NCBI GenBank assembly: GCA_946411635.1
Contig: CAMKES010000001.1
Coordinates: forward strand, 73,810 to 137,809
Length of the DNA: 64,000 nucleotides
Origin: an uncultured Clostridia bacterium
Lineage (GTDB): Bacteria; Bacillota; Clostridia; Christensenellales; CAG-138
Direction of reading: 5' to 3'
Below, in pieces: positions 8,495-44,459 of this stretch. The position numbers and the translations under genes are program-made. The notes under the pieces are model-generated. The model had not been told where the DNA came from. It saw nothing but the letters and a program-made list of their open reading frames with translations, and searched no databases. Within the stretch, counting starts at the first letter, position 1. Each line of letters opens with the position of its first letter.

Positions 8495-8511
8495 ATGTTC
8501 AGTAAGGAGTG

Positions 8512-11500
8512 TCAGTCTTCGACGGGAAGCGAAGCGATCAGCTTGACGACGTAGCGGAGGACCAATGCCGCGTCTTCCGCGTCGACCTTCAGATCGCAGT
8601 TCACGTCGGCGTTGAGCGCGCCCTGTGCGGAGAGTTCCGCAAGACCGACGACGGAGCGGAGGATCATTGCCGCGTCAGCCGCAGTGACCTTGCCGTCGCA
8701 GTTCGCATCGCCCCAAACGATCACGGGGAACGTGATGCTGCCGTCCACGGTTTCGGCTTCGAGCTCATAGACCGAGCCGCCGTAGAGGACGGACGCCGCA
8801 CTGACGGTATTCAGTGCGTTCGTGGTGAACGCGATGTCGACCGTCTTGCCGTTCGCATCCGCAGAGGCTTCGAAGTAGATCGACAGGACGACGTCGCCGT
8901 TCTTGATCGTGATTTCCTCATCATCCGCCCACACCGCCATGATCTTGCCGGTCTTCTCGCCGACGGTCCAGTCGATGAGACCTTCCGCCTTCGCAAAGGT
9001 CAGCAGATTCGCGTCGAATGCGAGGAAGATCTGCGCGCTGTTGATCATCAGACCGCCTTCGGGTGCGTCGGCGACCTTGATGTCGTAGCGATACAGCTTC
9101 TTGCCGTCTTCAATGACCGTGACGTCGGCTGCGAGCACGTCTTCACCGACGAACGAGAACGTCTTGGGCGCCGAGAAGGTGATGCTGCCGTCTTCGGTGT
9201 TGATCGGATCCGCTTCGACGACGGTGCCGTCGCTTACGTAGGAGAAGCCGGTCTTTGCGCCGTTCGCGCCTTCTGCGAAGACGATGTCGATCTTGGTGCC
9301 GTCCGCAACGGGCTTAATGAGCTCGAAGTAGATGGACACGACAACCGTTTCGTCATCGAGCTTCACGCCGTCGCCGTTGGACGCCCACGCGAAGGAGATG
9401 AGGCCGTTGTCTTCGTTGATGCCGGTGCTGCCTTCGAGCACGGACTTGGCTTCGACGAACTTCAGAGCGGTGTTGTCAAACTGCAGATATGCCTGCAGAC
9501 CGACCACTTCGAGTCTCGGGTTGACGTCCTTGACCTTGACGTCGTAACGATAGATGGTCTTGCCGTCCTCGGTGTATTCCGCAACGTCGTTCGCTTCAAC
9601 GTCCTCGCCGTAGAAGACCGGGGTGGGTCTCTCGGTGACGATCTTGATGCGGCCTTCGCCCTTCGGATCGACGTAGCCGGTGACGACGTGCTTGCCGTCT
9701 TCTTCAGGCATCGACTGGATGTAGTCGATCAGGACCTGGTTGTCGAGCTTGCCGGAATCCTCAAGGATCGTGATGTTCGAACCGAACATCGCGAAGCCGT
9801 CGCCCATATCCTTCAGCATGTAGTTGTGGGATGCGAGCGTGTACTTCTTCTCAAGATCGAGCGGTTCGTATTCGCCGGTCGTCTTGTTCAGGACCTTCAC
9901 GTTCTTGACGCGATACTCGTCAAGACCCGCCGTGCCCTGCCACATCTTGTCGGAACCGACAACGCAGTTCGGATCGAGGTAGGTGTGGATCTCATAGGTC
10001 AGACCCGCGACCTGCAGGAAGCCGCCGTTCTCGCTCGGGCAGACGCGCGCGCCCATTTCGAGTGCGTCGAGGATCTGCTGACCCGTGACCTCCGCGAGCA
10101 CCGCGGTGTTGCCGAACGGATGGACGTTGATGATCTGCTGGAAGGTGATGTCGCCCGTCGGGATGTTCGCACGGACGCCGCCGCCGTTGACAAACGCGAT
10201 GTCAGCGTCGAACATGTAGCGGTACGCGTCGGCGCACAGGTCGCCGAGGTTGGTTTCCGCGTTGCGGACCGCACGTGCGCCGGTATCCGGATCGTTGACC
10301 GTCAGGTCATGATCGGTGTACGCAACGACGGAGTTGAGCAGCGCTTCGAACTCTGCTTCGATCGCCGAGATGACCGCGTCGACTTCCGGATCGTCCTTGA
10401 CCTTCTCGGAAGCAGGCAGCAGTTCGAGGCTCATCGTGCCGTCCGCCTTGATCGTCAGCTTGCCGACGTTCGCGAGCTTCGTGCCGGTCTGGCCGTGGAG
10501 AACGTCCTTGTTGTCCTTATCCTTGACCGTCGTGTTGATGACGGAATGGCTGTGACCGTCGATGAACGCGTCGACGCCGGTGACGTTCGCGATGACTTCG
10601 GGAGCGGTCCACGGCTGAGACTGTTCGTCGATGCCCATGTGGCCGACGATGATGACGTAATCCGCGCCTTCGGCCTTCGCCGCGTCGATCGCAGCCTGCG
10701 CCGCGGTGTAGACGCCTGCGCCGGTGGTATCCTGGCAGAAGCCGTAGATGTATTCGCCCGCATCGTTCATGAAGTAGGTCGGGGTGGACTTGGTGATCGA
10801 TTCGGGGGTGGAGAGACCGACGAACGCGATCTTCTTGCCGTTCGCTTCGATGATCTTATACGCGTCGAGCTTCGCCTCGTTCGTTTCGAGATCCATGAAG
10901 TTCGCGGAGAGATACGGATAGTTCGCCTTTTCGATCAGCGTGAACAGCTGGTCCATGCCGTAGTCGAACTCGTGGTTGCCGAGGGTCGCGAGGTCGTAAC
11001 CGACGGCGTTCATGATGTCGATGATCGCATCGCCCTTGGTGAGCGAGCCGATCGGGCCGCCCTGGATGTGGTCGCCCGCGTCAACGAGGATGACTTCGTT
11101 GCCGTGCTTTTCGAGCGTCTTCTTGAGGTCTGCAACGCCTGCGTAGCCCCAGCCGTCACGGATGCCGCAGTGCACGTCATTCGTGAACAGAACGATCGTG
11201 TCGCCGGTGGGTTCCGCTTCGGTGACGATCTTGATGCGGCCTTCGCCCTTCGGATCGGTGTAGCCGGTGACGACGTGCTTGCCGTCCGCTTCGGGCATCG
11301 ACTGGATGTAGTCGATCAGGACCTGGTTGTCGAGCTTGCCGGAATCCTCAAGGATCGTGATGTTCGAACCGAACATCGCGAAGCCGTCGCCCATATCCTT
11401 CAGCATGTAGTTGTGGGATGCGAGCGTGTACTTCTTCGCAAGATCGAGCGGCTCGTATTCGCCGGTCGTCTTGTTCAGGATCTTAACGTTCTTGACACGG

Positions 11501-13893
11501 TATTCACCGCCGACCACTGCCGGACCCTGCCAGACCTTCGAGTCGTCGATCACGACGTTCGCGTCGAGGTAGGTGTGGATCTCATAGGTCAGACCCGCAA
11601 CCTGCAGGAAGCCGCCGTTCTCGCTCGGGCAGACGCGCGCGCCCATTTCGAGTGCGTCGAGGATCTGCTGACCCGTGACCTCCGCGAGCACCGCGGTGTT
11701 GCCGAACGGATGGACGTTGATGATCTGCTGGAACGTGATGTCGCCTTCCGCGATATCTGCACGGACGCCGCCGCCGTTGACGAACGCAACGTCCGCGTCA
11801 AACATATAGCGGTATGCGTCGGCGCACAGGTCGCCCAGGTTGGTTTCCGCGCTGCGGACCGCACGCGCGCCGGTATCCGGATTCTTGATGGTGAGAACGT
11901 GATCCGTGTATGCAACGACGCTGTTGAGCAGCTCGTTGAATTCCGCCTCGATCGCCGCGATGACGGCATCGACTTCCGGATCGTCCTTGACCTTCTCGGA
12001 GGCGGGGAGGATCTCGATGGTCATCGTGCCGTCCGCCTTGATCGTCAGCTTGCCGACGTTCGCGAGCTTCGTGCCGGTCTGGCCGTGGAGAACGTCCTTG
12101 TTGTCCTTATCCTTGACCGTCGTGTTGATGACGGAATGGCTGTGACCGTCGATGAACGCGTCGACGCCGGTGACGTTCGCGATGACTTCGGGAGCGGTCC
12201 ACGGCTGAGACTGTTCGTCGATGCCCATGTGGCCGACGATGATGACGTAGTCCGCACCCGCTGCCTTTGCCGCGTCGATCGCGTTCTGTGCCGCGGTGTA
12301 GACGCCTGCGCCGGTATCATCCTGGCAGAAGCCGTAGATGTACTCGGTGCGTTCTTCATTCATGAAGTACGCGGGGGTGGACTTGGTGATCGATTCGGGA
12401 GTGGAAAGACCGACGAACGCGATCTTCTTGCCGTTTGCTTCGATGATCTTGTACGCATCGAATACCGGGGTGTTCGTGGTGAGATCCATGAAGTTCGCGG
12501 AAACGTACGGATAGTTCGCACGGACCGCGAGGACGTCGAGGAACTGGGTCATGCCGTAGTCGAACTCATGGTTGCCGGGGATCGCGAGATCGTAACCGAC
12601 GGCGTTCATGATGTCGATGATCGCGGTGCCCTGCGTGAGCGAGCCGATCGGGCCGCCCTGGCTGTGGTCGCCCGCGTCAACGAGGATGACTTCGTTGCCT
12701 TCCGCTTCGAGCGTCTTCTTCAGGTCTGCAACGCCTGCGTAGCCCCAGCCGTCGCGGATACCGCAGTGCACGTCGTTCGTGAACAGAACGATCGTATCGC
12801 CGGTGGTGGGCGTCGGGGGAACTTCATCCGTTACTTTGAAGAAACGGAACGTGAACAGCGCCGGAGTCGTATCGATGCCCTGGTTATATGCGCTGAAGTT
12901 GCTGCTTCTTGTGTACCATTCGATGTAGTAACCTTCGCGACCGACGTTTCCGATTTTATAACCTTCACCGAAGGTTTCGATCGTCCAGTCCTTGTTTGTG
13001 CTGTCATACGGCATGCTGGTGTAGGAATCACCCATGGAGAGGAACTTGCCGTTCTGAGAGAAACGGTAGTAGCCATCTTCTGTAACAGTGACGTCCCAAA
13101 TGATGTTATCGGTAACATCGGTAAGCTTGTCATCAGCAGGCGTCATTGCAACACCGGCATTGTAGTAACCGCTGGTTTCGCAGCCGTCCATTGCCATGTT
13201 GTATTGCGTATTGTGAATAACAATCTTGTCGCCGTCTGCCGGAAGCGACGTCATAAGAACTGCCGTCTTGCCTTCAGGCTCGGGTGTGGGCGTCGGATCG
13301 GATGTGGGTGTCGGTTCGACGGTACCGCCGGCATTCTTTTTATACAGATTGGGCAGCAGATACGTAGAAGCACCACTATTGACAGTAGTGGTCTTATAGT
13401 ATCTGAAACGCTCCCCGTTGGACCCGGAAGTGCTATTATACACGAACTGCGTGGTGGGAGTTGTCCCGGAACCGTCATCATAACCGATGACAAAAGTGTC
13501 GGTGTTGAGCGCAATAGTGATCGTATTAACAGCTTCCGCGGTATCTAAATCGAGGCCATTTTTATTATTTGTACCGTGCATGTACTTGGACTGGCTCGTT
13601 TTTAAAGTATAACCACCGTCTACCACTGTGATAACGATCTCGCTGGAAGCAAAATCACCGCTAATCACGCCATCGGTAATGGTTGCATCCGTGTAATTAT
13701 GGTAATCGCCGGAAGCACCATTAAAGACGTGATTGCCCTGCACAATCAGATAGGATCCGTCCGTAACGTCGCTCATCTTGGTGACCTTGGTGTAGGTTAC
13801 CGTATCTTCAGCGACGGCAGGGCTGAGCTTGACCGCGGGGAGCAGCACAAGCATCATCAGAACTGCCAGGACCAGAGAAATGGTTTTTCTCAT
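8512..13893 (-). CDS. Secreted multidomain protein: N-terminal beta-rich domains, 2x 5'-nucleotidase (metallophosphoesterase + C-terminal domain), 2x cohesin-like, C-terminal dockerin
   Basis: Signal peptide. Two sets of TNDVH/DAGD/GNHEFD/DGHSH plus ETNLGD/NGGGVR/PFGN motifs. Two ~145-aa domains with cohesin hallmarks (YDVKV, LQFD..L.F, FAWA, SIYFE, DGSITF). Duplicated Ca-binding dockerin repeat GDANCDGKVTAADA...ADVNCDLKVDAEDA. Confidence 0.88.
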   Translation of the reverse strand: MRKTISLVLAVLMMLVLLPAVKLSPAVAEDTVTYTKVTKMSDVTDGSYLIVQGNHVFNGASGDYHNYTDATITDGVISGDFASSEIVITVVDGGYTLKTSQSKYMHGTNNKNGLDLDTAEAVNTITIALNTDTFVIGYDDGSGTTPTTQFVYNSTSGSNGERFRYYKTTTVNSGASTYLLPNLYKKNAGGTVEPTPTSDPTPTPEPEGKTAVLMTSLPADGDKIVIHNTQYNMAMDGCETSGYYNAGVAMTPADDKLTDVTDNIIWDVTVTEDGYYRFSQNGKFLSMGDSYTSMPYDSTNKDWTIETFGEGYKIGNVGREGYYIEWYTRSSNFSAYNQGIDTTPALFTFRFFKVTDEVPPTPTTGDTIVLFTNDVHCGIRDGWGYAGVADLKKTLEAEGNEVILVDAGDHSQGGPIGSLTQGTAIIDIMNAVGYDLAIPGNHEFDYGMTQFLDVLAVRANYPYVSANFMDLTTNTPVFDAYKIIEANGKKIAFVGLSTPESITKSTPAYFMNEERTEYIYGFCQDDTGAGVYTAAQNAIDAAKAAGADYVIIVGHMGIDEQSQPWTAPEVIANVTGVDAFIDGHSHSVINTTVKDKDNKDVLHGQTGTKLANVGKLTIKADGTMTIEILPASEKVKDDPEVDAVIAAIEAEFNELLNSVVAYTDHVLTIKNPDTGARAVRSAETNLGDLCADAYRYMFDADVAFVNGGGVRADIAEGDITFQQIINVHPFGNTAVLAEVTGQQILDALEMGARVCPSENGGFLQVAGLTYEIHTYLDANVVIDDSKVWQGPAVVGGEYRVKNVKILNKTTGEYEPLDLAKKYTLASHNYMLKDMGDGFAMFGSNITILEDSGKLDNQVLIDYIQSMPEADGKHVVTGYTDPKGEGRIKIVTEAEPTGDTIVLFTNDVHCGIRDGWGYAGVADLKKTLEKHGNEVILVDAGDHIQGGPIGSLTKGDAIIDIMNAVGYDLATLGNHEFDYGMDQLFTLIEKANYPYLSANFMDLETNEAKLDAYKIIEANGKKIAFVGLSTPESITKSTPTYFMNDAGEYIYGFCQDTTGAGVYTAAQAAIDAAKAEGADYVIIVGHMGIDEQSQPWTAPEVIANVTGVDAFIDGHSHSVINTTVKDKDNKDVLHGQTGTKLANVGKLTIKADGTMSLELLPASEKVKDDPEVDAVISAIEAEFEALLNSVVAYTDHDLTVNDPDTGARAVRNAETNLGDLCADAYRYMFDADIAFVNGGGVRANIPTGDITFQQIINVHPFGNTAVLAEVTGQQILDALEMGARVCPSENGGFLQVAGLTYEIHTYLDPNCVVGSDKMWQGTAGLDEYRVKNVKVLNKTTGEYEPLDLEKKYTLASHNYMLKDMGDGFAMFGSNITILEDSGKLDNQVLIDYIQSMPEEDGKHVVTGYVDPKGEGRIKIVTERPTPVFYGEDVEANDVAEYTEDGKTIYRYDVKVKDVNPRLEVVGLQAYLQFDNTALKFVEAKSVLEGSTGINEDNGLISFAWASNGDGVKLDDETVVVSIYFELIKPVADGTKIDIVFAEGANGAKTGFSYVSDGTVVEADPINTEDGSITFSAPKTFSFVGEDVLAADVTVIEDGKKLYRYDIKVADAPEGGLMINSAQIFLAFDANLLTFAKAEGLIDWTVGEKTGKIMAVWADDEEITIKNGDVVLSIYFEASADANGKTVDIAFTTNALNTVSAASVLYGGSVYELEAETVDGSITFPVIVWGDANCDGKVTAADAAMILRSVVGLAELSAQGALNADVNCDLKVDAEDAALVLRYVVKLIASLPVED
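9630..12805. repeat. ~1.59-kb intragenic tandem duplication (5'-nucleotidase module)
   Basis: CGGTGACGATCTTGATGCGGCCTTCGCCCTTCGGATCG occurs at 9633 and 11220. Long identical stretches recur about 1590 bp apart. Confidence 0.93.
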
Positions 13894-13975
13894 GTTTCGT
13901 TTCTTCCTCCTTACTTATTTGAACTTCATCCGAATATATATCGAACGATATATACCCAAAGTTCTATACGCAATC

Positions 13976-14004
13976 ATTATAAAGGAAACGATGTCAAATA
14001 GCAA
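13976..14004 (-). promoter_or_regulatory. Putative sigma-A promoter of the nucleotidase-cohesin-dockerin gene
   Basis: TTGCTA-17 nt-TATAAT on the minus strand. Confidence 0.55.
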
Positions 14005-14125: not shown

Positions 14126-15784
14126 TCAGAAGAGACCGCTGATATTGCCGGTTTCGTCGACGTCGATCTGCTCGGCGGCGGGGGCCTTCGGCAGTCCCGG
14201 CATGGTCATGATCGAGCCGGTCTGCGCAATGACGAAGCCCGCGCCCGCCGCGACGCGCAGTTTTCGCACCGTGATGCGGAAGCCCGCGGGCACGCCGCGC
14301 TTCTTGGGATCGTCGGAAAAACTGTACTGCGTCTTCGCAACGCACACCGGGAGTTTTCCGAAGCCGAGCGCTTTCAGCCGGTTCAGTTCCGCGTGCGCGT
14401 TCTCGGTGAAGACCACGCCGTCCGCGTGATAAACGCGCCGCGCGATCGACGTGAGGTTTTCTTCGATCGTGGAATCCGGCGAGTAGCAGAAGCGGAACCG
14501 GTTTTTGCGTTCGCACAGCGCGATCACCTGTTCGGCGAGCGCGACGCCGCCTTCGCCGCCCTTTGCCCAGACCTCGGAGATCACGGTCTCGAGCCCGTGC
14601 GAGGCGCAGAGCTCGTGCAGCAGCGAAAGCTCCGCTTCGGTGTCGGACGGGAAGCGGTTGATCGCGACGACGCAGGGGAGACCGAACACGTTCCGGAGAT
14701 TGTCCGCGTGCCGCAGAAGGTTCGGGAATCCCGCGATCAGCGCGGCGATGTTTTCCGCCGTGAGCGCGTCCTTTTCCACGCCGCCGTGGTACTTCAGCGC
14801 GCGCACCGTCGCGACGAGTACGACGGCCGACGGACGCAGTCCGGCCATGCGGCATTTGATGTCGAAAAACTTCTCCGCGCCGAGGTCCGCGCCGAAGCCG
14901 GCCTCCGTCACGGTATAGTCGGAAAGTTTCAGGGCAAGCTTCGTCGCGATCACGCTGTTGCAGCCGTGCGCGATGTTTGCGAACGGTCCGCCGTGGATCA
15001 GCACCGGCGTATGCTCGAGCGTCTGAACGAGGTTCGGGCGGATCGCGTCCTTCAGAAGCGCCGCCATCGCGCCGTGCGCCTTCAGATCCTTTGCGGTGAT
15101 CGGGCGGTCGTCCGCCGTATAGCCGACGATCACGCGTCCGAGCCGCTCCTTGAGATCCTTCAGATCGGACGCGAGGCAGAGGATCGCCATGACCTCGCTC
15201 GCGACCGTGATGTCGAACCCGTCTGCGCGCGGCACGCCGTTCGCCTTGCCGCCGAGTCCCACGGTGACGCTTCTGAGCGCCCGGTCGTTCATGTCCACGC
15301 AGCGTTTCCAGACGATCTTATCAAGCGCGAATCCGAGCTCGTTGCCCTGGTGGATATGATTGTCGATCATGGCGGCAAGCAGATTGTTCGCCGCGCCGAT
15401 CGCATGGAAATCGCCGGTAAAGTGCAGGTTGATGTCCTCCATCGGCACGACCTGCGAATAGCCGCCGCCCGCCGCGCCGCCCTTGATGCCGAATACGGGA
15501 CCGAGGCTCGGTTCCCGCAGCGCCGCGACGGCGCGTTTGCCGAGCAGATGCAGCGCGTCCGCAAGTCCGATCGTCGTGGTCGTCTTGCCCTCGCCGGCGG
15601 GCGTCGGGGTGATCGCCGTCACGAGGATCAGCTTGCCGTCCCCGCCTTCGATGCCCTTCGGATCGATCTTCGCTTTATACTTGCCGTACGGCTCGACGGC
15701 GTCCGCGGGAATGCCGGCGGAAGCCGCGATCTCGGTGATGGGAAGCAGCGTCGCCCGCTGCGCGATCTCGATATCGGTGAACAT
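14126..15784 (-). CDS. fhs: Formate--tetrahydrofolate ligase
   Basis: [51 protein letters not shown] and MTMPGL motifs. Confidence 0.97.
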
Positions 15785-28253: not shown

Positions 28254-31200
28254 TCATGCGTCGGGCAGCGCGGGGATCAGCTTGACGACGTAGCGCAGGA
28301 TCGCCGCGGCGTCCTCTGCGTCGATCGCGCCGTCGCCGGTCACTTCCGCGTTGAGGACGCCCTCCGCGGAGAGCGTGCTCAGACCGACGAGGGAGCGGAG
28401 GATCATCGCCGCGTCCGCAGCGGTGACCTTGCCGCTGCAGTTTGCGTCGCCGGGCAGGATCGCCGCGATCGCAACGTCCTTTGTCTGGACGGTGAAGTGT
28501 TCGTCCCGGAACGTCGCCGTATAGCGTCCCGAACCGGGCGTGCCGATCGCGGGCGCGGTCACGACCTCATATTCGGCGTCGACCGTTTCGGAGATCGTAT
28601 GACTGCCGTCGTTCGCGCAGACGACCGAGGCCGTGACCCGATAACCGGTTTCGGTCTCCTCCCACGTATAGGCGGGGTCGCCGTAATGATGTCCGAGCGC
28701 TTCGACCGTGCGCGTTTCCTCCGCGTTGCAGCGCGCGCACCTGCGCGTTTCAACGCCGGTTTCGGTGCAGGTCGGCGGGGTCGTGACGGTCCACGCGCCC
28801 CAGTCGTGTCCCAACGCGGGGATGCGGGTATCGGCAAGCGTGATCTCGTTCGCGCCCTGTTCGTCCGAGAAATATCTGCCGCAGCGGGAGCAGTACCAGT
28901 ACTCGGTATTGCCGTCCTCGGTGCAGGTCGGCGCAGCCGCAGCCGTGTGGACGAGGACGTGCACGTGCTCCCCGGAGGGTTCGGTCGTGTAGTACGTCGC
29001 GTCGCCCGCGGTCGCCTTCCAGAAGCGGATGAAGAGCGCCGAGGAGTTGTTGCTGCTGCCCGCCCAGAAATACGGGCCGTCGATGTACATCGCGATCATC
29101 GGATAGTTGCCGCCCTTGGCGTAGGTCGCGCTGCTGGCGTTCGACTTCGTGCCGGGCGTCCAGTCGCAGTAACCGGTACTGTAGGTCCGGTAGCCCGCCA
29201 GATAGCCGCCGGTGTTCTCGCCCAGATACGTGCCCGTCGCATCGTTCTGTATGGAGTAGTAGTTACCGTGCGGTTCCATGGTAAACACGTAGGCGTCCGA
29301 AACGTCGGACAGCGTCGTGCCGTTCAGAACGGCGCCGGTCACCGCATACTGGTCGCAGTTATAGGTGCCTTCGATCGCCGTGCCGTCGGAGCTGACCGAT
29401 ACGCCTTTCATCACGTACATGGGACTCGACGAGGAATTTGCGGTCCGGTAGGTAATGACGTATTTGCCGGACCAGTCGGACGGCGCGGAGGAGACCAGCT
29501 CGTAAACCGGCGCGCCGACGCCCTGTTCCACACGGGAATAGACGGCGTACAGCGTGACGTCGGCGGTGACCGTGTAGGCCGCGCCCGGTTCGGCGTATAC
29601 CGGTTTGCGGTCCGTTTCATCGGGGATCGCCGTATCCGTCCAGCCGATGAACGTCCAGCCGTCGGGATTGACGCTTACGGACGAGGGCAGCGTGATCGCA
29701 TCGCCGTGCAGCGCGGTCGTCTGTCCCTGCGCGGTGCCGGATGCGGTAAAGCACACGGTATAACGGGGCTTCGGCGCAAAGATGACCCTGATCGTGCAGT
29801 CGCTTTCCGGCGTTACGCGGATGATGTTGCCGCGGATAACGGCGGTCGCGGTGCCGCTGACGACTTCATAATCGGCGGCGTAGTAGCCGGCGGCGGGCGC
29901 CGCCGTGATCTTCGTGTCTTCGACCGACACGGTGCCCCACGCCTCGTTGTTGGAGATCGCGGTGACGGTATAGGGCGAGGCGAGCCGGATGCCGATATAA
30001 ACGAGATTCGGGTCCGCGTCGGACGGCGGATTGAACACGCCGTCGACCGGCTTCACGGTGATCGCGCCGCCGCCCTTGACGACGCAGGTGGAACCGGTAA
30101 ACACGACGGGGGACAGCAGATCCCACGGATTCTGCACGTTGTTGTACTGCGAAGGATTGTAGCCGTCCTGCACCTTGAACCCGTAAATGCCGCCGTACTG
30201 ATCCTGCGCGGCGTTGGCGGTAACGGCGACGCGGAAGTCTCTGACCAGCTCCGCGCAGTTCACGCCGGTCGCGTTGGTGATCGCCGTGGTCTCGCTGGAC
30301 GTGAAATGGTCCGAGATCTGCCGGTAGATCGTGTTGCCGAACCGGGAGAACAGGTACTGCGCAAAGAAGGACACCTGCGCGTACAGCGCCAGCACGTCGT
30401 CGATGCCGTTGCTCCAATTGTACATGGAATAGCCGTTGTGCAGGTTGAAGCTGCTCTGATATGCAAATTCCGCGGGCGGATTCAGCCAGTCGCCGTTGGT
30501 GGAGTAGTAATAGTTTTCCCAGGACTGGATGCGGCTGACGACGGAGCTGCCGGGGTAGCAGATCTCCTCCGCGGCGGCGGAGAAGCACTCGTTGAGCCAG
30601 GTCGCCATGCCGCTGGTGTTGGAGTAATTGATCAGATGCTGATACTCGTGCACCATGGTGCTGTACGTATCTTTCATCCGCTTATAGACGTTGCCGCTGT
30701 TGGGATTCTTGTAATAGACGCCGGGATAGGTGTCGATGTTCAGAATGGGCAGGTCGTTGTAGTACAGATCGTACGCGTAGAAGAAGCCCGCGACGTACCC
30801 GCCGGAGCCGTTCCAGCCCTCGTCGATGTTGTAGTACAGTATGTGGAGCTTGCCGTCGCCGGAGCCGGTTTCGTGGTCGCCGAAAGAGGACTGCATCAGA
30901 TCGAACTTGGAGTCGAACTCATCCGCCGCCATCTTGGCGTAGCTCGAATCGATCTCATCCAGCGGATAGGTATTGTTTGCGGAGGACGTCGGCGTCCAGA
31001 TATAGCAGTGCTCGCCCACGTAAAGGCACTCGAATTCCATGCTGTCGCTTCCGGTCGGGGAATACTGCCCGAGGATCTCGAAGGTCTTTGTGTCGCCGAC
31101 GGCGTAGGACGTCGCCTTCAGGAGCGACGGATCGCGCCGCGTTCCGGCGTTCTCCGGCCTGTCAAGCAGCGAATCGACGTCGATCTTCCAGATCGGCAGG

Positions 31201-31514
31201 TCCGTGTTCGCCGCGTGCCGGTTTCCGGGATCCGGCGCGACGACCGGTTCGACGGTCGTTTCGATGAGGCCCGTCAGGTTGCCGACGGAATAGGATGAGG
31301 AGGCGGTCGTGGAGGGATTGTAGATCACGACGTAATCGCCCTCGTAGCCGTCGGTCGGATCGTTGTCAATGATGACGGAATTGTGTACGCCGCGCACGGC
31401 GGAAGCCTCACCGGAGGCCGTCTCGGGCGCCTGCGGCGCGTCCGCAGCCGCGGCGGGCAGCAGCGAGAGAACCATAAGAAGGCTCAGAACGACACAAAAC
31501 AGTTTCTTTTTCAT
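28254..31514 (-). CDS. Secreted zinc metallopeptidase (M30/hyicolysin-like) with repeat domains and C-terminal dockerin
   Basis: Signal peptide. HEYQH...WLNE zincin motif. InlB/Flg_new-like segment (GWTFIGW...TLYAVY) and PTCTEDG/PTCTETG repeats. Dockerin GDANCSGKVTAADA...AEVTGDGAIDAEDA. Confidence 0.82.
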   Translation of the reverse strand: MKKKLFCVVLSLLMVLSLLPAAAADAPQAPETASGEASAVRGVHNSVIIDNDPTDGYEGDYVVIYNPSTTASSSYSVGNLTGLIETTVEPVVAPDPGNRHAANTDLPIWKIDVDSLLDRPENAGTRRDPSLLKATSYAVGDTKTFEILGQYSPTGSDSMEFECLYVGEHCYIWTPTSSANNTYPLDEIDSSYAKMAADEFDSKFDLMQSSFGDHETGSGDGKLHILYYNIDEGWNGSGGYVAGFFYAYDLYYNDLPILNIDTYPGVYYKNPNSGNVYKRMKDTYSTMVHEYQHLINYSNTSGMATWLNECFSAAAEEICYPGSSVVSRIQSWENYYYSTNGDWLNPPAEFAYQSSFNLHNGYSMYNWSNGIDDVLALYAQVSFFAQYLFSRFGNTIYRQISDHFTSSETTAITNATGVNCAELVRDFRVAVTANAAQDQYGGIYGFKVQDGYNPSQYNNVQNPWDLLSPVVFTGSTCVVKGGGAITVKPVDGVFNPPSDADPNLVYIGIRLASPYTVTAISNNEAWGTVSVEDTKITAAPAAGYYAADYEVVSGTATAVIRGNIIRVTPESDCTIRVIFAPKPRYTVCFTASGTAQGQTTALHGDAITLPSSVSVNPDGWTFIGWTDTAIPDETDRKPVYAEPGAAYTVTADVTLYAVYSRVEQGVGAPVYELVSSAPSDWSGKYVITYRTANSSSSPMYVMKGVSVSSDGTAIEGTYNCDQYAVTGAVLNGTTLSDVSDAYVFTMEPHGNYYSIQNDATGTYLGENTGGYLAGYRTYSTGYCDWTPGTKSNASSATYAKGGNYPMIAMYIDGPYFWAGSSNNSSALFIRFWKATAGDATYYTTEPSGEHVHVLVHTAAAAPTCTEDGNTEYWYCSRCGRYFSDEQGANEITLADTRIPALGHDWGAWTVTTPPTCTETGVETRRCARCNAEETRTVEALGHHYGDPAYTWEETETGYRVTASVVCANDGSHTISETVDAEYEVVTAPAIGTPGSGRYTATFRDEHFTVQTKDVAIAAILPGDANCSGKVTAADAAMILRSLVGLSTLSAEGVLNAEVTGDGAIDAEDAAAILRYVVKLIPALPDA

Positions 31515-40262: not shown

Positions 40263-41315
40263 TTACGGTTTGCAGTGACCGCAGGGAGAGTAGCCGCTGT
40301 CGATCAAAGCGCTTCGGGTTCCTTCGTACGTTGCTTTATTCTTGTCGGCGATTCTCTTAACGTCTTTACAAGACGGATTATGGAACTTATGCGTCGATGT
40401 GTTGAGAATATAGACCTTTGTCTTCTCATTCGTTTTGACGTTCGACCATTTTCCGTAATATTTTGTCCCTTCGAAAACGTGATAGGATCGGACTCGGACA
40501 TAATAGATTGTATTATCGTTCAGACCCGTGATTGTTTTCTGATCCGTTTTCGGATCTGAAATGGTGACCGTATTGACGTTCTTTGTAAATGCCGAATCCG
40601 TTGCGGTCTGCAGCTGATATCCGGTAAAATGCGAACTCGCGCTCCATTTGGCAGTTAATTTCTTCGATCCGGGGGTAACGGAGATCAACTCGCGCGTAGT
40701 AATGCGTACGGTTGTTTTTAACGGACCGACGAGCCCCAGATTATAATTATCCATCGGGTCGTCATAATATGCTTTTATTCCATATTGATACCGCGTTCCC
40801 GCATATACCTTCGTATCGGTCCACGATGTTGAAGTCGTATTGTTCCACCGAAGAAAATCGGTCCATCCGTTCGTTGCACTGCTCCAGGCACGACGATAAA
40901 TAACATATCCCCGGGCGCCCTTTACGGAAGACCATTTGATTTGAATCCCATTATCCGTGTTCTCAACGCTGGTTGAAGCAGTAGGAGGCAGATAGATTTT
41001 GAACCACAGGGTCTTTTTTTTGCCGGTTTCCTTGACGGTTACATCAACCAACGCGTTCCCGGGATACGTATTGTTCCGATATGACAGCGTATACTCCGAA
41101 GCATTCAACAACCGACCGTTGTACGATACGATGACAGGCGGAGTCAGACTCGACCCGGTATAGACGACGTAAGGGGTTGTTCCTTTATATTTGACATATG
41201 CCGGATCAAATGATACGGAGACAGTATCCGTTGCAGCGGCGTCTGCCGTAGTCGGATGCACGATCACGGCCGAAACCAGCAAAATCAACAAAAGAACAGA
41301 CAACGCTTTTTTCAT
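40263..41315 (-). CDS. Secreted FN3-module protein with C-terminal Ada-type Zn-binding-like motif
   Basis: Signal peptide and FN3 segments (YQYGIKAY; YYVRVRSY...GKWS). C-terminal YILNTSTHKFH.PSC...GYSPCGHCKP. AT-richer than neighbours. Confidence 0.75.
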   Translation of the reverse strand: MKKALSVLLLILLVSAVIVHPTTADAAATDTVSVSFDPAYVKYKGTTPYVVYTGSSLTPPVIVSYNGRLLNASEYTLSYRNNTYPGNALVDVTVKETGKKKTLWFKIYLPPTASTSVENTDNGIQIKWSSVKGARGYVIYRRAWSSATNGWTDFLRWNNTTSTSWTDTKVYAGTRYQYGIKAYYDDPMDNYNLGLVGPLKTTVRITTRELISVTPGSKKLTAKWSASSHFTGYQLQTATDSAFTKNVNTVTISDPKTDQKTITGLNDNTIYYVRVRSYHVFEGTKYYGKWSNVKTNEKTKVYILNTSTHKFHNPSCKDVKRIADKNKATYEGTRSALIDSGYSPCGHCKP

Positions 41316-41327
41316 GGTATAAACCCC

Positions 41328-44300
41328 TTATTTCGTCTTCGCGTAGATCACGTTCGACCAGCCGCCGTAATAGGTCGTGCTCTGGAACACGTGATACGAG
41401 CGTACGCGCACGTAGTAAGTCGTCTTTGCCTTCAGGTCCTTGATGACGCGCTGCGTCGTCTTCGGATTGGAGATCGTGATCGTCTTCAGACCCGCGCTGA
41501 ACGAGGCGTTCGTCGCGTACTGCACCTGATAGCCGGTGAACTTCGAGCTCGCTTCCCACTTGACGGTCAGCTGCTTCGTGCCGGGCGTCACGGAAATGAG
41601 CTTGCGCGTGGTGATGCGCACGGTCGTCTTGAGCGGGCCGACCATACCGAGGTTATAGTTGTCCATCGCGCCGCCGATCGTTGCGCCTGTGACCGGGTCG
41701 GTCCGCTGCGTGAAGTACGCCTTCACGCCGTACTGATAGCGCGTGCCGGCATAGACCTTGGTGTCGGTCCAGCTCGTTGCCGTCGTGTTGTTCCAGCGCT
41801 CGAACGACGTCCAGCCGGAGGAGGAGAGGTTCCACGCGCGGCGGTAGATGACGTAGCCCGCGGCGCCGGGGACCGCTTTCCAGCTGATCTTGACGCCGTC
41901 GTTCACGTTCGCGACCGTCGTGGTCGTCGTGGGCGGCATATAGATCTTGAAGAACACGCGGTTCTCGCTGCCCGTCGCTTTCATGGTGACCACGGCGTAG
42001 CCGGTTCCGGGCTGCTCGTTTTCGAGGTACGAGACCGTGTAATCCGAGGCCGGGATCAGGTTGCTGTCCTTGTCCCGGACGATAACGCCGGGCGCAGCGG
42101 GCGAGCCGTCGAACACGACGTACGGGGTCGTGCCTTTGAACTCCACGTCGTCGGGATCCATCGCGACGGTAAACGAATCGTCCGCGATCGTGAATGCCGG
42201 GCTGGATGCATACAGATAGCAGAAATCGAACCCGGTTGTCGTATAGTCGTCCGCCGTCCAGGTCTGCCCGTCGACGACGACCGTCGGCCCGTCGGCAATA
42301 ACGTATTCCTCGCCGCCGTCGTCGATGCGGATCTGACAGGAGAACCGCCACGTACCGGGCGTGAACGTGTCGCTATAGAAAGCATGAACCCACTCATCGC
42401 CGTCTTTATAATACCAGCCGCCCATGCCGGTTTCAAAATACGACGGAAGGCCCTCCGAAACGGTGAACTCCGGATGTTCGATCGTATTCCCGGCGACCGC
42501 CATTGTCTTCATATCGCTCGATGCAACGATCTTCGAGATCTGGGTTTTATCCTCTTTCCTTTTCGCGGTCTTGTAGACGCCGATCTCGATCTCCGCGTAG
42601 TCCCCGGCGTCGTCCGTCACGCGTACGACAAGATTGCTGTTTTTTCCGGTTTGATAGGGCGTTCCGCTGATCGTGCCGTCCGCGGAGACGTCGACCCAAT
42701 CGGGGCCGGAGGTTTTGCTGAACGTATAGGGCGGCGTGCCGCCGTCAACCGATCCTGCGACGGAGAAGGGCGTGATCGGCTCATTGACGTAGTTGTAATC
42801 GATATAGTAAGAACTGAGTTTGTTGAAGATCAGTTCGCCGCCTCCGGTGATCGTGTATACAGGGCTGGTAGCGTAGGTATAGCAGTAGGTGTCGGAGATA
42901 CTGGCATGGCCGGTTCCGCTCCACTCGACGCCGTTGACCTTAACGGTCGGGCGGTAGGAGAACGAATACCGGTCGCCGCCGTCGTCGATGCGGATCTGGC
43001 AGGAAAACCGCCATTCGCCGGCAGTGAACTGTCCGGAGGAGATGCGGGTCCACTCGCCGTCGATCAGCTTGGACCAGCCGCCCATGCCGGTTTCAAAGTA
43101 TCCGGGTTCACCGCCCGTGACCGTGAACTCCGGCGCCTTGATATCATCGCCGTAGACGGGGACTTCGTCGATATTTGAATTCGCGGTCAGCGTATCGATG
43201 ACCTCGTGCGGATGGTCGGAATCGAAGATCTTGAAATGATGATACGCTTCGCCGCAATACCGGTTGATGCCGTAAACGTAGATATCGCCGTATCCGGGCT
43301 CAACATTGTTGTAATAGCTGACGACGTAATCCGTTCCTTCGGCCAGCAGTTCACCGTTACAGACGATCTGAAGATTGGACTGTGTGAGCGGAGAACCGGT
43401 GTAGTTCATCGGCTCGACGCCGAGAAACTCCGCCTGATAGAGGTCCTCCTTGCTCATGATCTTATAGGAGACCCAGACGTGCTCGATGCCGTCCTCGTCG
43501 AGATACGGCGCTTCGATGATCGTATCGTCGTCGCCGTTGACGGTGAACTGCTGGTCCTCGTGCCAATGACAGCCGGGCGCGAGACCGACGTCGAAGGTGA
43601 TGTAGTACGGATCCATCGGGACGAGATATTCCTCGCTCTCGTTCAGATACCAGGGCTCGCCCGGATCGTCCGAAAAACCGGTGTAGCCGGAATCGGTATC
43701 CACGTACCAGCCCTCCGACGCGTCTCCGGAATACGCGTCAAAATAGCTTGGGCCGCGTCTCGACCGGATCGAGTTCAGGAACGACTGATACGCTTCCGCG
43801 CCTGTCATCCGGTCGGAGACCAGGGGAAAATCGGCGGTGGAATAATGCAGATCGATGGTTTCCGGCGTCGTGCCGAGATAGAAGCTTGTGCCGTAGTTGA
43901 TGCGATCGTTGCTTCGTGAAAACGCCGTGAACGGCCTCCCGCCGAGGCTAATCTCATAAAGAGATCCGCCGTATGAAAAATAGGTCTCGTAATCGATCTG
44001 GTAATCCGAGCTCATGGTTTGCACGCTTACGACGAGCGTCCATACGCCCTCCGTGAACGAGTGACCGGAATAGTAGGTTTCATTGGTCGTCTCGTTGTAC
44101 CAGTACGTCTGGACCTTCAGCGCGGACGTGTATCCGGTCGGGATCGTGCTGGTGACCTTGATGTAAGGCTCGTTCGGATAGAACAGCGGATCGCCGACGA
44201 CCGGCGTGGGAATGTCCTCGCTGATCGACAGCGTGAACGCCTGAATGGTCGTTTCCGCTTTGGCCGTTTCGACCGCGGGCATCAGCACGAGAAGCATCAG

Positions 44301-44333
44301 AACGGAAAGAAGAACGGAAAGGGTGCGTTTCAA
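41328..44333 (-). CDS. Large secreted Ig/FN3-domain surface protein
   Basis: AAGGAGG RBS with TTG start and a signal peptide. Duplicated domain (PEFTV...YFETGMGGW...WRFSCQIRIDDGG), He_PIG-like GPDWVDVSADGTISGTP, and C-terminal FN3 module. Confidence 0.78.
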   Translation of the reverse strand: MKRTLSVLLSVLMLLVLMPAVETAKAETTIQAFTLSISEDIPTPVVGDPLFYPNEPYIKVTSTIPTGYTSALKVQTYWYNETTNETYYSGHSFTEGVWTLVVSVQTMSSDYQIDYETYFSYGGSLYEISLGGRPFTAFSRSNDRINYGTSFYLGTTPETIDLHYSTADFPLVSDRMTGAEAYQSFLNSIRSRRGPSYFDAYSGDASEGWYVDTDSGYTGFSDDPGEPWYLNESEEYLVPMDPYYITFDVGLAPGCHWHEDQQFTVNGDDDTIIEAPYLDEDGIEHVWVSYKIMSKEDLYQAEFLGVEPMNYTGSPLTQSNLQIVCNGELLAEGTDYVVSYYNNVEPGYGDIYVYGINRYCGEAYHHFKIFDSDHPHEVIDTLTANSNIDEVPVYGDDIKAPEFTVTGGEPGYFETGMGGWSKLIDGEWTRISSGQFTAGEWRFSCQIRIDDGGDRYSFSYRPTVKVNGVEWSGTGHASISDTYCYTYATSPVYTITGGGELIFNKLSSYYIDYNYVNEPITPFSVAGSVDGGTPPYTFSKTSGPDWVDVSADGTISGTPYQTGKNSNLVVRVTDDAGDYAEIEIGVYKTAKRKEDKTQISKIVASSDMKTMAVAGNTIEHPEFTVSEGLPSYFETGMGGWYYKDGDEWVHAFYSDTFTPGTWRFSCQIRIDDGGEEYVIADGPTVVVDGQTWTADDYTTTGFDFCYLYASSPAFTIADDSFTVAMDPDDVEFKGTTPYVVFDGSPAAPGVIVRDKDSNLIPASDYTVSYLENEQPGTGYAVVTMKATGSENRVFFKIYMPPTTTTTVANVNDGVKISWKAVPGAAGYVIYRRAWNLSSSGWTSFERWNNTTATSWTDTKVYAGTRYQYGVKAYFTQRTDPVTGATIGGAMDNYNLGMVGPLKTTVRITTRKLISVTPGTKQLTVKWEASSKFTGYQVQYATNASFSAGLKTITISNPKTTQRVIKDLKAKTTYYVRVRSYHVFQSTTYYGGWSNVIYAKTK

Positions 44334-44459
44334 ATCGAAAACCTCCTTACTCCGCGAACGAACGTTCGCATTTATATACACAATACAGTATATATTATCA
44401 AAGAAACGATTGCAAGCGGAAAACAAAAAAAGTCCCCTCGAAAGGGGACGGATGCGGCG

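What the first reader, a model, noticed from the sequence alone, without database searches (positions are those of the whole stretch)
8512..13893. Candidate non-cellulosomal scaffoldin: double 5'-nucleotidase + two cohesins + dockerin in one secreted protein
Seen: after two intact 5'-nucleotidase modules come two cohesin-like domains (~9176-9620 and ~8727-9165) and a canonical duplicated dockerin (8512-8720). There is no LPXTG, SLH or CBM. Known: cohesin-dockerin pairs assemble cellulosomes and amylosomes, and proteins with both modules act as adaptor scaffoldins. Inference: this is a catalytic adaptor scaffoldin able to recruit two dockerin enzymes and dock onto another scaffold or polymerise with itself. 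That would give an extracellular nucleotide- and protein-scavenging complex rather than a polysaccharide-degrading one.
Basis: partly seen in the sequence, partly recalled or inferred. Interest (0 to 1): 0.85.

Follow-up and report, generated by a model that had tools for sequence, protein, structure and literature searches.

The report
Dockerin-tethered double 5'-nucleotidase carrying two cohesins
A ruminant-gut bacterium encodes a secreted enzyme that removes phosphate from nucleotides and also carries the "plug and socket" modules normally used to build cellulose-degrading complexes, which suggests a surface complex for scavenging nucleic acids and proteins rather than plant fibre.

Summary
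Window 8512..13893 (-) is one 1793-aa ORF. Then come two cohesin-fold domains (Pfam weak; AF2 pLDDT 95.5; Z 14-17 to solved cohesins) and a canonical type I dockerin.

The genome (2.06 Mb) has 13 dockerins in 12 ORFs. They sit on four S8 proteases, Endonuclease I, this nucleotidase, a cyclic-nucleotide phosphodiesterase/3'-nucleotidase-like protein, a PHP metallohydrolase, a SpoIID protein and unknowns. None carries a Pfam glycoside-hydrolase catalytic domain, so this is not a conventional cellulosome.

Cohesin-dockerin binding was not shown. Two findings temper the "scaffoldin" reading. Coh(-Coh)-Doc is a conserved C-terminal cassette on many unrelated proteins of uncultured Clostridia, and the dockerin follows the last cohesin with almost no linker. 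The cohesins could therefore be structural partners of the dockerin.

The closest known analogue is R. bromii Amy4 (enzyme + cohesin + dockerin, self-binding). Verdict: a real, conserved gene that appears in ruminant-gut RNA libraries, and a new variant of a known kind. Interest 0.6.

The parts
13976..14004 (-). promoter-like site (TTGCTA, 17 nt spacer, TATAAT), downstream of two terminator-like hairpins that follow the upstream FTHFS gene; GGAGG lies 12 nt before the ATG
   Evidence: This is a consensus match only: 5 promoter-like sites were found in the region against 2.3 +/- 1.5 in shuffles.
13810..13893 (-). Sec-type signal peptide, residues 1-28 (MRK, hydrophobic core, AVA then EDT)
   Evidence: Read from the translation. 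No signal-peptide predictor was run.
13333..13797 (-). beta-trefoil domain A (residues about 33-187)
   Evidence: AF2 model m785fd61903df, pLDDT 84.6. Double-trefoil chains such as HA33 align across both domains.
12829..13269 (-). beta-trefoil domain B (residues about 209-355), shared with the N-terminus of the dockerin-bearing PHP metallohydrolase L008
   Evidence: Z 16.2, rmsd 2.6, 134 residues aligned to the CBM13-type module of 3vsf_C. Z 16.1 to the ricin-B-like lectin 4izx. phmmer to the L008 ORF gives E 9.7e-15.
11239..12798 (-). 5'-nucleotidase module 1 (Metallophos + 5_nucleotid_C), residues about 366-885
   Evidence: Pfam, NCBIfam. PDB sequence matches: 2z1a at 7e-33, UshA at about 1e-32, CD73 at about 1e-25. 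The metal and catalytic motifs can be read in the sequence.
9649..11217 (-). 5'-nucleotidase module 2, residues about 893-1415, a tandem duplicate of module 1
   Evidence: 465 of 525 aligned residues are identical (88.6%). DNA direct repeats with spacing of about 1590 nt are 86-96% identical.
9175..9633 (-). cohesin-fold domain 1 (residues 1421-1573)
   Evidence: Pfam Cohesin 24.4 bits. Z 16-17 to type I cohesins.
8722..9165 (-). cohesin-fold domain 2 (residues 1577-1724), 39% identical to domain 1
   Evidence: Pfam Cohesin 17.3 bits. Z 14.2 to 5n5p_A. Identity 58 of 149.
8512..8721 (-). type I dockerin (Pfam residues 1728-1782) with two Ca-loop/helix repeats, followed by the stop codon
   Evidence: 43.6 bits. 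PDB dockerin sequence matches such as 4fl4_A at 7.7e-7.
28254..31514 (-). second dockerin protein of the window (1086 aa, Flg_new repeat + C-terminal dockerin 71% identical to the target's); a candidate partner or cargo

Best explanation
The gene encodes a secreted, modular ecto-5'-nucleotidase. It consists of a signal peptide, two beta-trefoil lectin-fold targeting domains, two near-identical UshA/CD73-type catalytic modules, two cohesins and a C-terminal type I dockerin. Shown: the domains, their folds, intact catalytic motifs and conservation of the architecture in related uncultured Clostridia. Also shown: a genome-wide dockerin set carried by proteases and nucleic-acid or nucleotide hydrolases and not by glycoside hydrolases. 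Contigs of this gene are present in ruminant-gut RNA libraries. Inferred: the dockerin plugs the enzyme into a cohesin on another surface protein. Candidates are the cohesin proteins L011 and L012 and the giant S8 proteases L005 and L006, which all end in the same C-terminal fn3 module. Also inferred: its own two cohesins accept dockerins of other enzymes or of further copies of itself. That would place Endonuclease I, a PHP metallohydrolase, a 2',3'-cyclic-nucleotide phosphodiesterase/3'-nucleotidase-like protein and S8 proteases next to the nucleotidase on the cell surface. Nucleic acids would then be cut to nucleotides and dephosphorylated to nucleosides and phosphate close to the cell's transporters. 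In this reading it works like R. bromii Amy4, an enzyme that is also a small scaffoldin.
For: Domains.
Cohesin fold: pLDDT 95.5, Z 14-17.
Dockerin: 43.6 bits, and sequence matches to solved dockerins.
Catalytic modules: they match 2z1a, UshA and CD73. The motifs DVH, GDH, GNHEF, GHMG and GHSH, plus the C-domain R..R, GGGVR, PFGN and GDGF, are readable in both copies. The mapping of these motifs to UshA residues is recalled.
Dockerin census: 13 dockerins in 12 ORFs. By Pfam and NCBIfam, 4 of 12 are S8 subtilases, 1 is Endonuclease I with a cohesin, 1 is this protein, 1 is cyclic-PDE/3'-NT-like and 1 is a PHP/CehA-McbA metallohydrolase. One has SpoIID + SH3, 1 is a weak HExxH match and 2 are unknown. 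None of the 12 has a Pfam GH catalytic domain.
CAZymes elsewhere: GH9 was not found, GH5 scored below its cut-off, and none of the 10 GH13 matches lies in a dockerin ORF.
Cohesins elsewhere in the genome: a custom HMM finds 5 domains in 4 ORFs (target x2, L004, L011, L012). Two more weak Pfam hits lie in L005 and L006.
Mutual exclusion: none of the nine proteins with a canonical group-A dockerin (nor L007) carries the C-terminal fn3 module, whereas L005, L006, L011 and L012 all do.
Conserved architecture: of 109 stored proteins, 18 are NT5-NT5-Coh-Coh-Doc and 13 are NT5-Coh-Coh-Doc.
Precedent: the Amy4 cohesin binds its own and other dockerins in ELISA and pull-down (PMC4611034, passages read).
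RNA libraries: error-free contigs in RNA run X1 span 8502-9661 and 12724-13943. In-gene bins have depth 2.7-25.5 and flanking bins 0-2, while DNA run X2 covers all 30 bins. This is only a weak hint of transcription.
Against: No binding was demonstrated.
The cohesins are very divergent. Pfam Cohesin detects only 3 of 42 representatives of this clade at E <= 1e-4. No solved cohesin matches by sequence.
The dockerin follows cohesin 2 after about 4 residues. Of 37 representatives whose match reaches the end of cohesin 2, 33 have just 68-76 residues left.
The three-domain model has pTM 0.84, which suggests a rigid unit rather than beads on a flexible string.
The target's cohesins are only 17-24% identical to the genome's other cohesins, and they are the only ones of their type in this genome. 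So no partner is implied by homology.
The genes are scattered, not clustered like sca loci (coordinates).
The anchoring role of the fn3 C-terminal module is a guess.
Substrate specificity (5'-NMP, UDP-sugar, NAD or cyclic nucleotides) cannot be read from sequence.
Confidence: 0.5

Rival explanations
1. Cargo only. The protein is a dockerin-tethered nucleotidase, and its two cohesin-fold domains are structural. They would form a rigid stalk or stabiliser fused to the dockerin, analogous in role to the X-module of X-dockerin dyads. They would recruit nothing.
For: The linker between cohesin 2 and the dockerin is almost absent. In 33 of 37 representatives the dockerin directly follows this cohesin type. 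Coh-Doc and Coh-Coh-Doc occur as a fixed C-terminal cassette on unrelated N-terminal modules: 30 and 17 of 109 stored proteins, besides 31 nucleotidases. The Pfam families among 42 representatives are listed. pTM is 0.84 for three domains, against 0.49 for the two N-terminal trefoils. Pfam cohesin scores are weak.
Against: The fold matches bona fide dockerin-binding type I cohesins at Z 16-17, better than it matches other beta-sandwiches. The same enzyme-Coh-Doc layout in R. bromii Amy4 does bind dockerins. Other dockerins of this genome are preceded by different domains such as cadherin-like or fn3_5, so a cohesin-fold neighbour is not needed for dockerin stability. The X-module comparison is recalled, not tested.
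Confidence: 0.3
2. Self-assembly only. The dockerin recognises the protein's own cohesins on other copies, giving branched homopolymers of nucleotidase (two sockets per plug). No heterologous enzymes would be recruited.
For: The cohesins and dockerin travel together as one cassette across many proteins, as expected if they co-evolve as a matched pair. Amy4 shows such self-recognition. The target's cohesin type is found only in this protein in this genome.
Against: Nothing here distinguishes self from non-self partners. Four other dockerins of the genome are 60-71% identical to the target's and would probably share its specificity. Amy4 binds other dockerins as well.
Confidence: 0.12
3. A free secreted or otherwise retained nucleotidase whose cohesin and dockerin modules are evolutionary leftovers with no assembly role.
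For: Non-cellulosomal cohesin- and dockerin-like modules of unknown role are widespread (Peer et al. 2009; recalled, paper not held). The genes are not clustered.
Against: The cassette is conserved at 50-75% identity across many assemblies. The Ca-binding loop residues of both dockerin repeats are intact. Cohesins occur in 83 of 101 sampled genomes of the family. Matches to the cassette query, mostly its dockerin part, occur in 48 of 101. This argues for selection on a working system.
Confidence: 0.05

Closest known systems
Ruminococcus bromii Amy4 (amylosome)
   Same: A secreted enzyme with a catalytic module, a cohesin and a C-terminal dockerin in one chain. It sits in a small-genome gut Firmicute whose other dockerins include peptidases. 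It is both cargo and mini-scaffoldin (PMC4611034, passages read). One relative of the present cassette, P0045, carries an alpha-amylase module nearest to R. bromii Amy16.
   Different: Here the catalytic part is a duplicated 5'-nucleotidase rather than GH13. There are two cohesins instead of one, plus N-terminal beta-trefoils. Binding is experimentally shown for Amy4 and not shown here. Homology of the Amy4 cohesin itself to these cohesins was not tested.
Adaptor scaffoldins of cellulosomes (R. flavefaciens ScaA/ScaC; A. cellulolyticus ScaA, which also carries a GH9)
   Same: Cohesin(s) plus a dockerin in one polypeptide, linking cargo to an anchoring scaffoldin. The fold matches include these proteins' cohesins (3l8q, 5lxv, 4uyp).
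   Different: Those systems carry plant-cell-wall CAZymes and have sortase or SLH anchors and sca gene clusters. Details of their domain composition are recalled, not tested. Here no dockerin ORF has a Pfam GH catalytic domain and no SLH was found.
Non-cellulolytic cohesin-dockerin assemblies: Limousia mucinolysome, C. perfringens glycosidase/toxin complexes, Ca. Stygibacter complex, 'planctosome'
   Same: Cohesin-dockerin pairs organise extracellular enzymes for substrates other than cellulose. Dockerin-bearing peptidases are part of several of them (PMC12997984, abstract and passages; PMC8542988, passages).
   Different: Those are built around glycoside hydrolases and/or peptidases. None of the texts I read mentions nucleases or nucleotidases (0 occurrences in PMC12997984 and PMC13463774). 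Their supplementary tables, which list the 'other' dockerin proteins, were not available to me.
Cell-surface nucleotide phosphoesterases: Nt5e (LPXTG ecto-5'-nucleotidase), UshA, and multifunctional PRK09419-type enzymes with tandem modules
   Same: The same catalytic superfamily and extracellular location. The best NCBIfam rows are Nt5e_LPXTG at 404 bits, UshA at 330 bits and PRK09419 forms at 247-314 bits, all below their full-length cut-offs.
   Different: Attachment would be through a dockerin instead of LPXTG or a periplasmic location. The two modules are near-identical copies rather than different activities. It also carries cohesins and lectin-fold domains.

Membership tests
Cohesin (PF00963; cohesin fold) | Nine-stranded beta-sandwich (jelly-roll) fold of solved cohesins | tested here: met
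   AF2 pLDDT 95.5. Domain 1 gives Z 16-17 with rmsd about 2 A over 130-135 residues. Domain 2 gives Z 14.2 to 5n5p_A.
Cohesin (PF00963; cohesin fold) | Pfam model above its gathering score | tested here: inconclusive
   Domain 1 scores 24.4 against 24.1 when scanned alone. Domain 2 scores 17.3, below the cut-off. There is no hit when the whole protein is scanned at E <= 0.1.
Cohesin (PF00963; cohesin fold) | Binds a dockerin | not testable with these tools
   This needs ELISA, ITC or a validated interaction matrix.
Type I dockerin (PF00404) | Pfam model above the cut-off, and two duplicated Ca-binding loop plus helix segments | tested here: met
   43.6 bits against 22.9. The loops DANCDGKVTAAD and DVNCDLKVDAED are readable. 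The loop consensus is recalled.
5'-nucleotidase / UshA / CD73 family | Metallophos N-domain plus 5_nucleotid_C domain, with metal-binding and catalytic motifs | tested here: met
   The motifs are present in both copies. The residue roles are recalled from UshA.
5'-nucleotidase / UshA / CD73 family | Hydrolyses 5'-nucleotides | not testable with these tools
   An enzyme assay is needed. All NCBIfam equivalog cut-offs were missed, so the exact substrate is open.
Adaptor scaffoldin | At least one cohesin and a dockerin in one secreted chain, with partner modules elsewhere in the genome | tested here: met
Adaptor scaffoldin | Bridges cargo to an anchoring scaffoldin by demonstrated cohesin-dockerin pairs | not testable with these tools
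   No binding data exist. The anchor is not identified: no SLH, and a candidate C-terminal fn3 module only.
Cellulosome | Dockerins borne mainly by plant-cell-wall glycoside hydrolases | tested here: not met
   None of the 12 dockerin ORFs has a Pfam GH catalytic domain. GH9 was not found and GH5 scored below its cut-off.
Ricin-B / CBM13-like beta-trefoil | Beta-trefoil fold | tested here: met
   Z 16.2 to 3vsf_C and 16.1 to 4izx for domain B. Double-trefoil alignments cover both domains. The Pfam RicinB_lectin_2 hit is only E 0.067.
Ricin-B / CBM13-like beta-trefoil | Binds carbohydrate | not tested
   The sugar-site residues were not examined. The ligand could be something other than a glycan.

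The most novel reading that the evidence does not exclude
Ruminant-gut Clostridia build a cell-surface cohesin-dockerin machine devoted to nucleic acids and proteins. A tandem 5'-nucleotidase is itself the adaptor scaffoldin. It holds Endonuclease I, a PHP phosphoesterase, a cyclic-nucleotide phosphodiesterase/3'-nucleotidase-like enzyme and S8 proteases together. The whole assembly hangs on cohesin proteins that are fixed to the cell by a previously unrecognised C-terminal fn3 module.
Probability: 0.3. Interest if true: 0.75.

Novelty: new variant of a known kind. Interest (0 to 1): 0.6.

Why it matters
Cohesin-dockerin assembly is textbook for cellulose. It has recently been extended to starch and mucin, and by genome inference to peptides.

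If confirmed, this would be an assembly whose cargo forms a nucleic-acid-to-nucleoside pathway (nuclease, phosphodiesterases, nucleotidase) together with proteases. That would extend the principle to scavenging of microbial debris in the rumen. Turnover of microbial nucleic acids and protein there is, to my recollection, a large nitrogen and phosphorus flux.

It also shows that a whole clade of cohesins is nearly invisible to Pfam: 3 of 42 representatives are detected. It provides a compact Coh-Coh-Doc cassette that could be used as a self-assembling tag.

None of the four text searches for dockerin together with nucleotidase, nuclease, extracellular DNA, nucleic acid degradation or necromass found such a system in print. 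Most subscription journals are not held in that library, and supplementary tables were closed.

Tried and rejected
Complex prediction. Coh1-Coh2 (A1 rows, residues 1-305) was run against the protein's own dockerin (306-374). The result was 'no answer': score 0.02 against a mark of 0.32, and the controls were not run. It counts neither for nor against binding.

Intramolecular contacts. The model's coordinates are not exposed (one search lists no model files). I therefore could not see whether the dockerin packs on cohesin 2. Only the pTM of 0.84 hints at a fixed arrangement.

Anchors. No SLH was found. Two sortase genes exist, but my simple LPXTG-type regular expression found no convincing sorting signal among all ORFs. 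Its 12 hits all look spurious, and the pattern may be too crude.

Taxonomy. The search for related loci in genome contigs returned only 3 distant dockerin matches: a Ruminococcus sp., an Oscillospiraceae MAG and a Lachnospiraceae MAG. Source names of homologues say only 'Clostridia bacterium'. The family is not named.

Atlas searches gave only leads: trefoil-like at 0.85, and fn3 at 0.98 for the C-terminal module.

Literature. Searches found no nucleic-acid-directed cohesin-dockerin complex. PMC9765747 (passages) was irrelevant. Peer et al. 2009 is not held.

Read laying. Contigs cannot give transcript ends or levels. The apparent stop of RNA contigs at 8502 and 13943-13950 is not used as evidence of transcript boundaries.

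Paper supplements were not consulted. Those of PMC12997984 list 'other' dockerin proteins and could bear on novelty.
Full report
WHAT IS THERE

Window 8512..13893 on the minus strand is a single 1793-aa ORF. A long antisense frame on the plus strand is not considered further; all family matches lie in the minus-strand frame. The gene follows the formate-tetrahydrofolate ligase gene (14126..15784, -). Between the two lie two terminator-like hairpins, a promoter-like TTGCTA-17-TATAAT site and a GGAGG 12 nt before the ATG. It therefore probably has its own promoter. The next ORF downstream with a family match encodes a uracil-DNA glycosylase family protein. No other cohesin or dockerin gene is adjacent.

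DOMAINS, FROM THE N-TERMINUS

(i) Residues 1-28 read as a Sec signal peptide (by eye).

(ii) Residues about 33-187 and 209-355, separated by a Pro/Thr linker, have no significant Pfam match (RicinB_lectin_2, E 0.067). An AF2 model from a 25-row alignment has pLDDT 84.6 and pTM 0.49, and shows two beta-trefoils.
- Domain B aligns to the CBM13-type module of C. thermocellum 1,3Gal43A (3vsf_C; Z 16.2, rmsd 2.6, 134 residues) and to ricin-B-like lectins (4izx, Z 16.1).
- Double-trefoil proteins such as HA33 align across both domains.
- Domain B recurs at the N-terminus of another dockerin protein of this genome, the PHP metallohydrolase L008 (E 9.7e-15).
Whether these trefoils bind sugar is untested.

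(iii) Two UshA/CD73-type 5'-nucleotidase modules lie at about residues 366-885 and 893-1415.
- They are 465/525 = 88.6% identical. At DNA level they form a tandem repeat of about 1590 nt with 86-96% identity.
- Module 1 matches T. thermophilus 5'-nucleotidase 2z1a (7e-33), E. coli UshA (about 1e-32) and CD73 (about 1e-25).
- The metal-binding and catalytic motifs and the C-domain substrate motifs are present in both copies (residue roles recalled).

(iv) Two cohesin-fold domains and (v) a type I dockerin follow; details are in the observation check. The two cohesins are 39% identical to each other.

IS IT A ONE-OFF?

No.
- A search with residues 1400-1793 found 64 proteins.
- An exhaustive profile-free scan of 1.84 billion representatives found only 52 clusters at E <= 0.001. 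The clade is therefore small but real.
- I classified the 109 stored proteins with HMMs built from this protein's own modules. The result was 18 NT5-NT5-Coh-Coh-Doc (including the target), 13 NT5-Coh-Coh-Doc, 17 Coh-Coh-Doc on other N-terminal parts and 30 Coh-Doc. The remaining 31 were 15 Doc only, 4 Coh, 3 Coh-Coh, 1 Doc-Coh-Doc, 1 Doc-Doc and 7 with none.
- Pfam on 42 representatives shows the other N-terminal parts: MBG_2 in 6, Flg_new in 6, Glug in 3, Calx-beta in 2, and alpha-amylase, CBM26, Cna_B and beta-helix in 1 each. The Pfam Cohesin model sees only 3 of the 42.
- Of the 37 representatives whose match reaches the end of cohesin 2, 33 have just 68-76 residues left, which is a dockerin and nothing else. 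The exceptions are P0071, P0096, P0098 and P0103.
- The conserved unit is therefore a C-terminal Coh(-Coh)-Doc cassette with almost no linker between the last cohesin and the dockerin.

THE GENOME'S SYSTEM

The window lies in a 2.06-Mb, 26-contig genome that is 95.7% complete.

Dockerins. Pfam Dockerin_1 finds 13 matches in 12 ORFs. characterise them:

| ORF | Content |
|---|---|
| L001, L005, L006, L010 | S8 subtilases with a PA domain |
| L004 | Endonuclease I + cohesin + dockerin |
| target | this protein |
| L007 | N-terminal dockerin + weak 2',3'-cyclic-nucleotide phosphodiesterase/3'-nucleotidase match (48 bits) |
| L008 | CehA/McbA-type PHP metallohydrolase (99 bits against a cut-off of 80) + weak OB-fold hit |
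| L009 | SpoIID + SH3 |
| L002 | weak HExxH metalloprotease hit |
| L003, window 28254..31514 | unknown |

None of the 12 has a Pfam glycoside-hydrolase catalytic domain. GH9 was not found, GH5 scored below its cut-off, and the 10 GH13 matches all lie outside the dockerin ORFs. The refutation criterion 'conventional CAZyme cellulosome' is therefore not met.

Dockerin groups.
- A canonical group A has nine members: the target, the second window protein, L001-L004, L008, L009 and the C-terminal dockerin of L010. The target is 60-71% identical to five of these (win2, L010 C-terminal, L008, L001, L004).
- A divergent internal type occurs in the S8 proteases L005 and L006, and as the internal dockerin of L010.
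- L007 fits neither group.

Cohesins.
- My HMM finds five domains: target x2, L004, L011 and L012.
- Pfam adds weak hits in L005 and L006.
- They form two types. The target's pair is 17-24% identical to the L004/L011/L012 type, whose members are about 34% identical to each other.

Candidate anchor module.
- L005, L006, L011 and L012 all end in the same fn3 module of about 122 aa.
- That module matches 21 ORFs of the genome. In 18 it ends at the very C-terminus and in one more it ends one residue short.
- Carriers include a GH13 amylase and window ORFs 41328..44426 and 40263..41315.
- None of the group-A dockerin proteins (nor L007) has it.
- This mutual exclusion is what one would expect if the module fixes proteins to the cell and dockerins attach the rest indirectly. 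That is inference.

WIDER CONTEXT

- In 101 sampled genomes of the same (unnamed) family, Pfam cohesins occur in 83, of which 76 are over the cut-off.
- Matches to the cassette query occur in 48 of the 101, mostly to its dockerin part. A full-length cassette was seen only in the same-genus genome G068: 56% identity in a 1313-aa ORF, consistent with a single-module form.
- Near-identical DNA is held by 14 runs at half or more of the sampled words. They are labelled sheep or bovine gut or bovine metagenome, two unspecified gut metagenomes, and one anaerobic digester. In all, 19 runs from 12 studies hold the stretch or part of it.
- Three RNA libraries from three studies hold contigs of the gene. 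In X1, error-free contigs cover 8502-9661 and 12724-13943. In-gene bins have depth 2.7-25.5 and flanking bins 0-2, while DNA run X2 covers everything. This is a weak hint of expression, because these are contigs and the run was chosen for holding the gene.

HOW IT MOST LIKELY WORKS

Shown: a secreted, conserved enzyme that combines two intact nucleotidase modules, two lectin-fold domains, two cohesin folds and a canonical dockerin. It sits in a genome whose dockerins decorate proteases and nucleic-acid or nucleotide hydrolases.

Inferred:
- The dockerin ties it to a cohesin of a surface protein.
- Its cohesins accept other dockerins, or its own, as R. bromii Amy4 does (PMC4611034, passages).
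- This would co-localise Endonuclease I, phosphodiesterases and the nucleotidase, so that nucleic acids are converted to nucleosides and phosphate at the cell surface.

The main rival is that the cohesin-fold domains are a rigid structural partner of the dockerin. The evidence for it is the zero-length linker, the fixed cassette and the pTM of 0.84. In that case the protein is cargo only. I put 0.5 on the enzyme-scaffoldin reading, 0.3 on cargo-only, 0.12 on self-polymer only and 0.05 on vestigial modules.

COMPARISON WITH WHAT IS KNOWN

It is not a cellulosome, because the defining CAZyme cargo is absent. It works like an adaptor scaffoldin or Amy4-type enzyme-scaffoldin.

It belongs with the growing set of non-cellulolytic cohesin-dockerin systems:
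- the amylosome;
- the Limousia mucinolysome (PMC12997984, abstract and passages);
- the Ca. Stygibacter complex and the 'planctosome' (PMC8542988, passages);
- the C. perfringens complexes mentioned.

A recent AF2 survey makes the same point that sequence models miss many cohesins (PMC13463774, passages).

None of my four searches for dockerin together with nucleotidase, nuclease, extracellular DNA, nucleic acid degradation or necromass found a described system with this cargo. Supplements and most subscription journals were not searchable.

VERDICT

This is a new variant of a known kind. Interest is 0.6. The cargo class and the enzyme-as-scaffoldin layout would interest specialists, but the key step, binding, is untested, and a structural role for the cohesins remains a serious alternative.

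Noticed in passing
window 41328-44426 (-) and 40263-41315 (-); also G000 loci L005, L006, L011, L012 and about 15 other ORFs: A conserved fn3 module of about 122 aa ('...TTVRITTR...YYVR.RSY...W') matches 21 ORFs of this genome. In 18 it ends at the very C-terminus and in one more it ends one residue short. Carriers include all cohesin-only proteins and a GH13 amylase, and none of the group-A dockerin proteins. It is a candidate cell-surface anchoring or sorting module.
   Followed up: partly
window 28254-31514 (-): A second dockerin protein (1086 aa). It has a Flg_new (Listeria-Bacteroides repeat) domain and a C-terminal dockerin 71% identical to the target's. No catalytic domain was found.
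   Followed up: partly
L005, L006, L010 (G000 C2:270025-279135, C2:237083-243949, C4:34094-43081): Giant S8 subtilases (2266-3005 aa) carry a divergent internal dockerin-like segment just after the protease domain. It is distinct from the canonical group (23-34% identity). L005 and L006 also have weak cohesin hits and the C-terminal fn3 module.
   Followed up: partly
window 40266-44459 and G000 contig C20:4132-8325: Two neighbouring ORFs (354 and 1043 aa) give identical scores on contig C1 (inside the window) and on contig C20. This suggests a duplicated stretch of about 4 kb or a redundant contig in the assembly.
   Followed up: no
window 53465-61225 (-): A 2586-aa surface-protein-like ORF with Flg_new repeats, Cna_B, DUF7601 and an MBG_2 domain. 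It has no dockerin.
   Followed up: no
G000 C18:3-16508 (-), next to L011 and L012: An open frame of 5502 aa that runs off the contig end lies beside the two tandem cohesin-fn3 genes. Its content was not examined.
   Followed up: no
L008 (G000 C2:342880-348300) and window 12829-13269: The PHP/CehA-McbA metallohydrolase with a dockerin shares the target's second beta-trefoil domain at its N-terminus. This hints that both enzymes are aimed at the same ligand or particle.
   Followed up: partly
window 4531-5976 (+): An ORF matching DUF6034 over its full length (E 1.9e-26). Its function is unknown.
   Followed up: no
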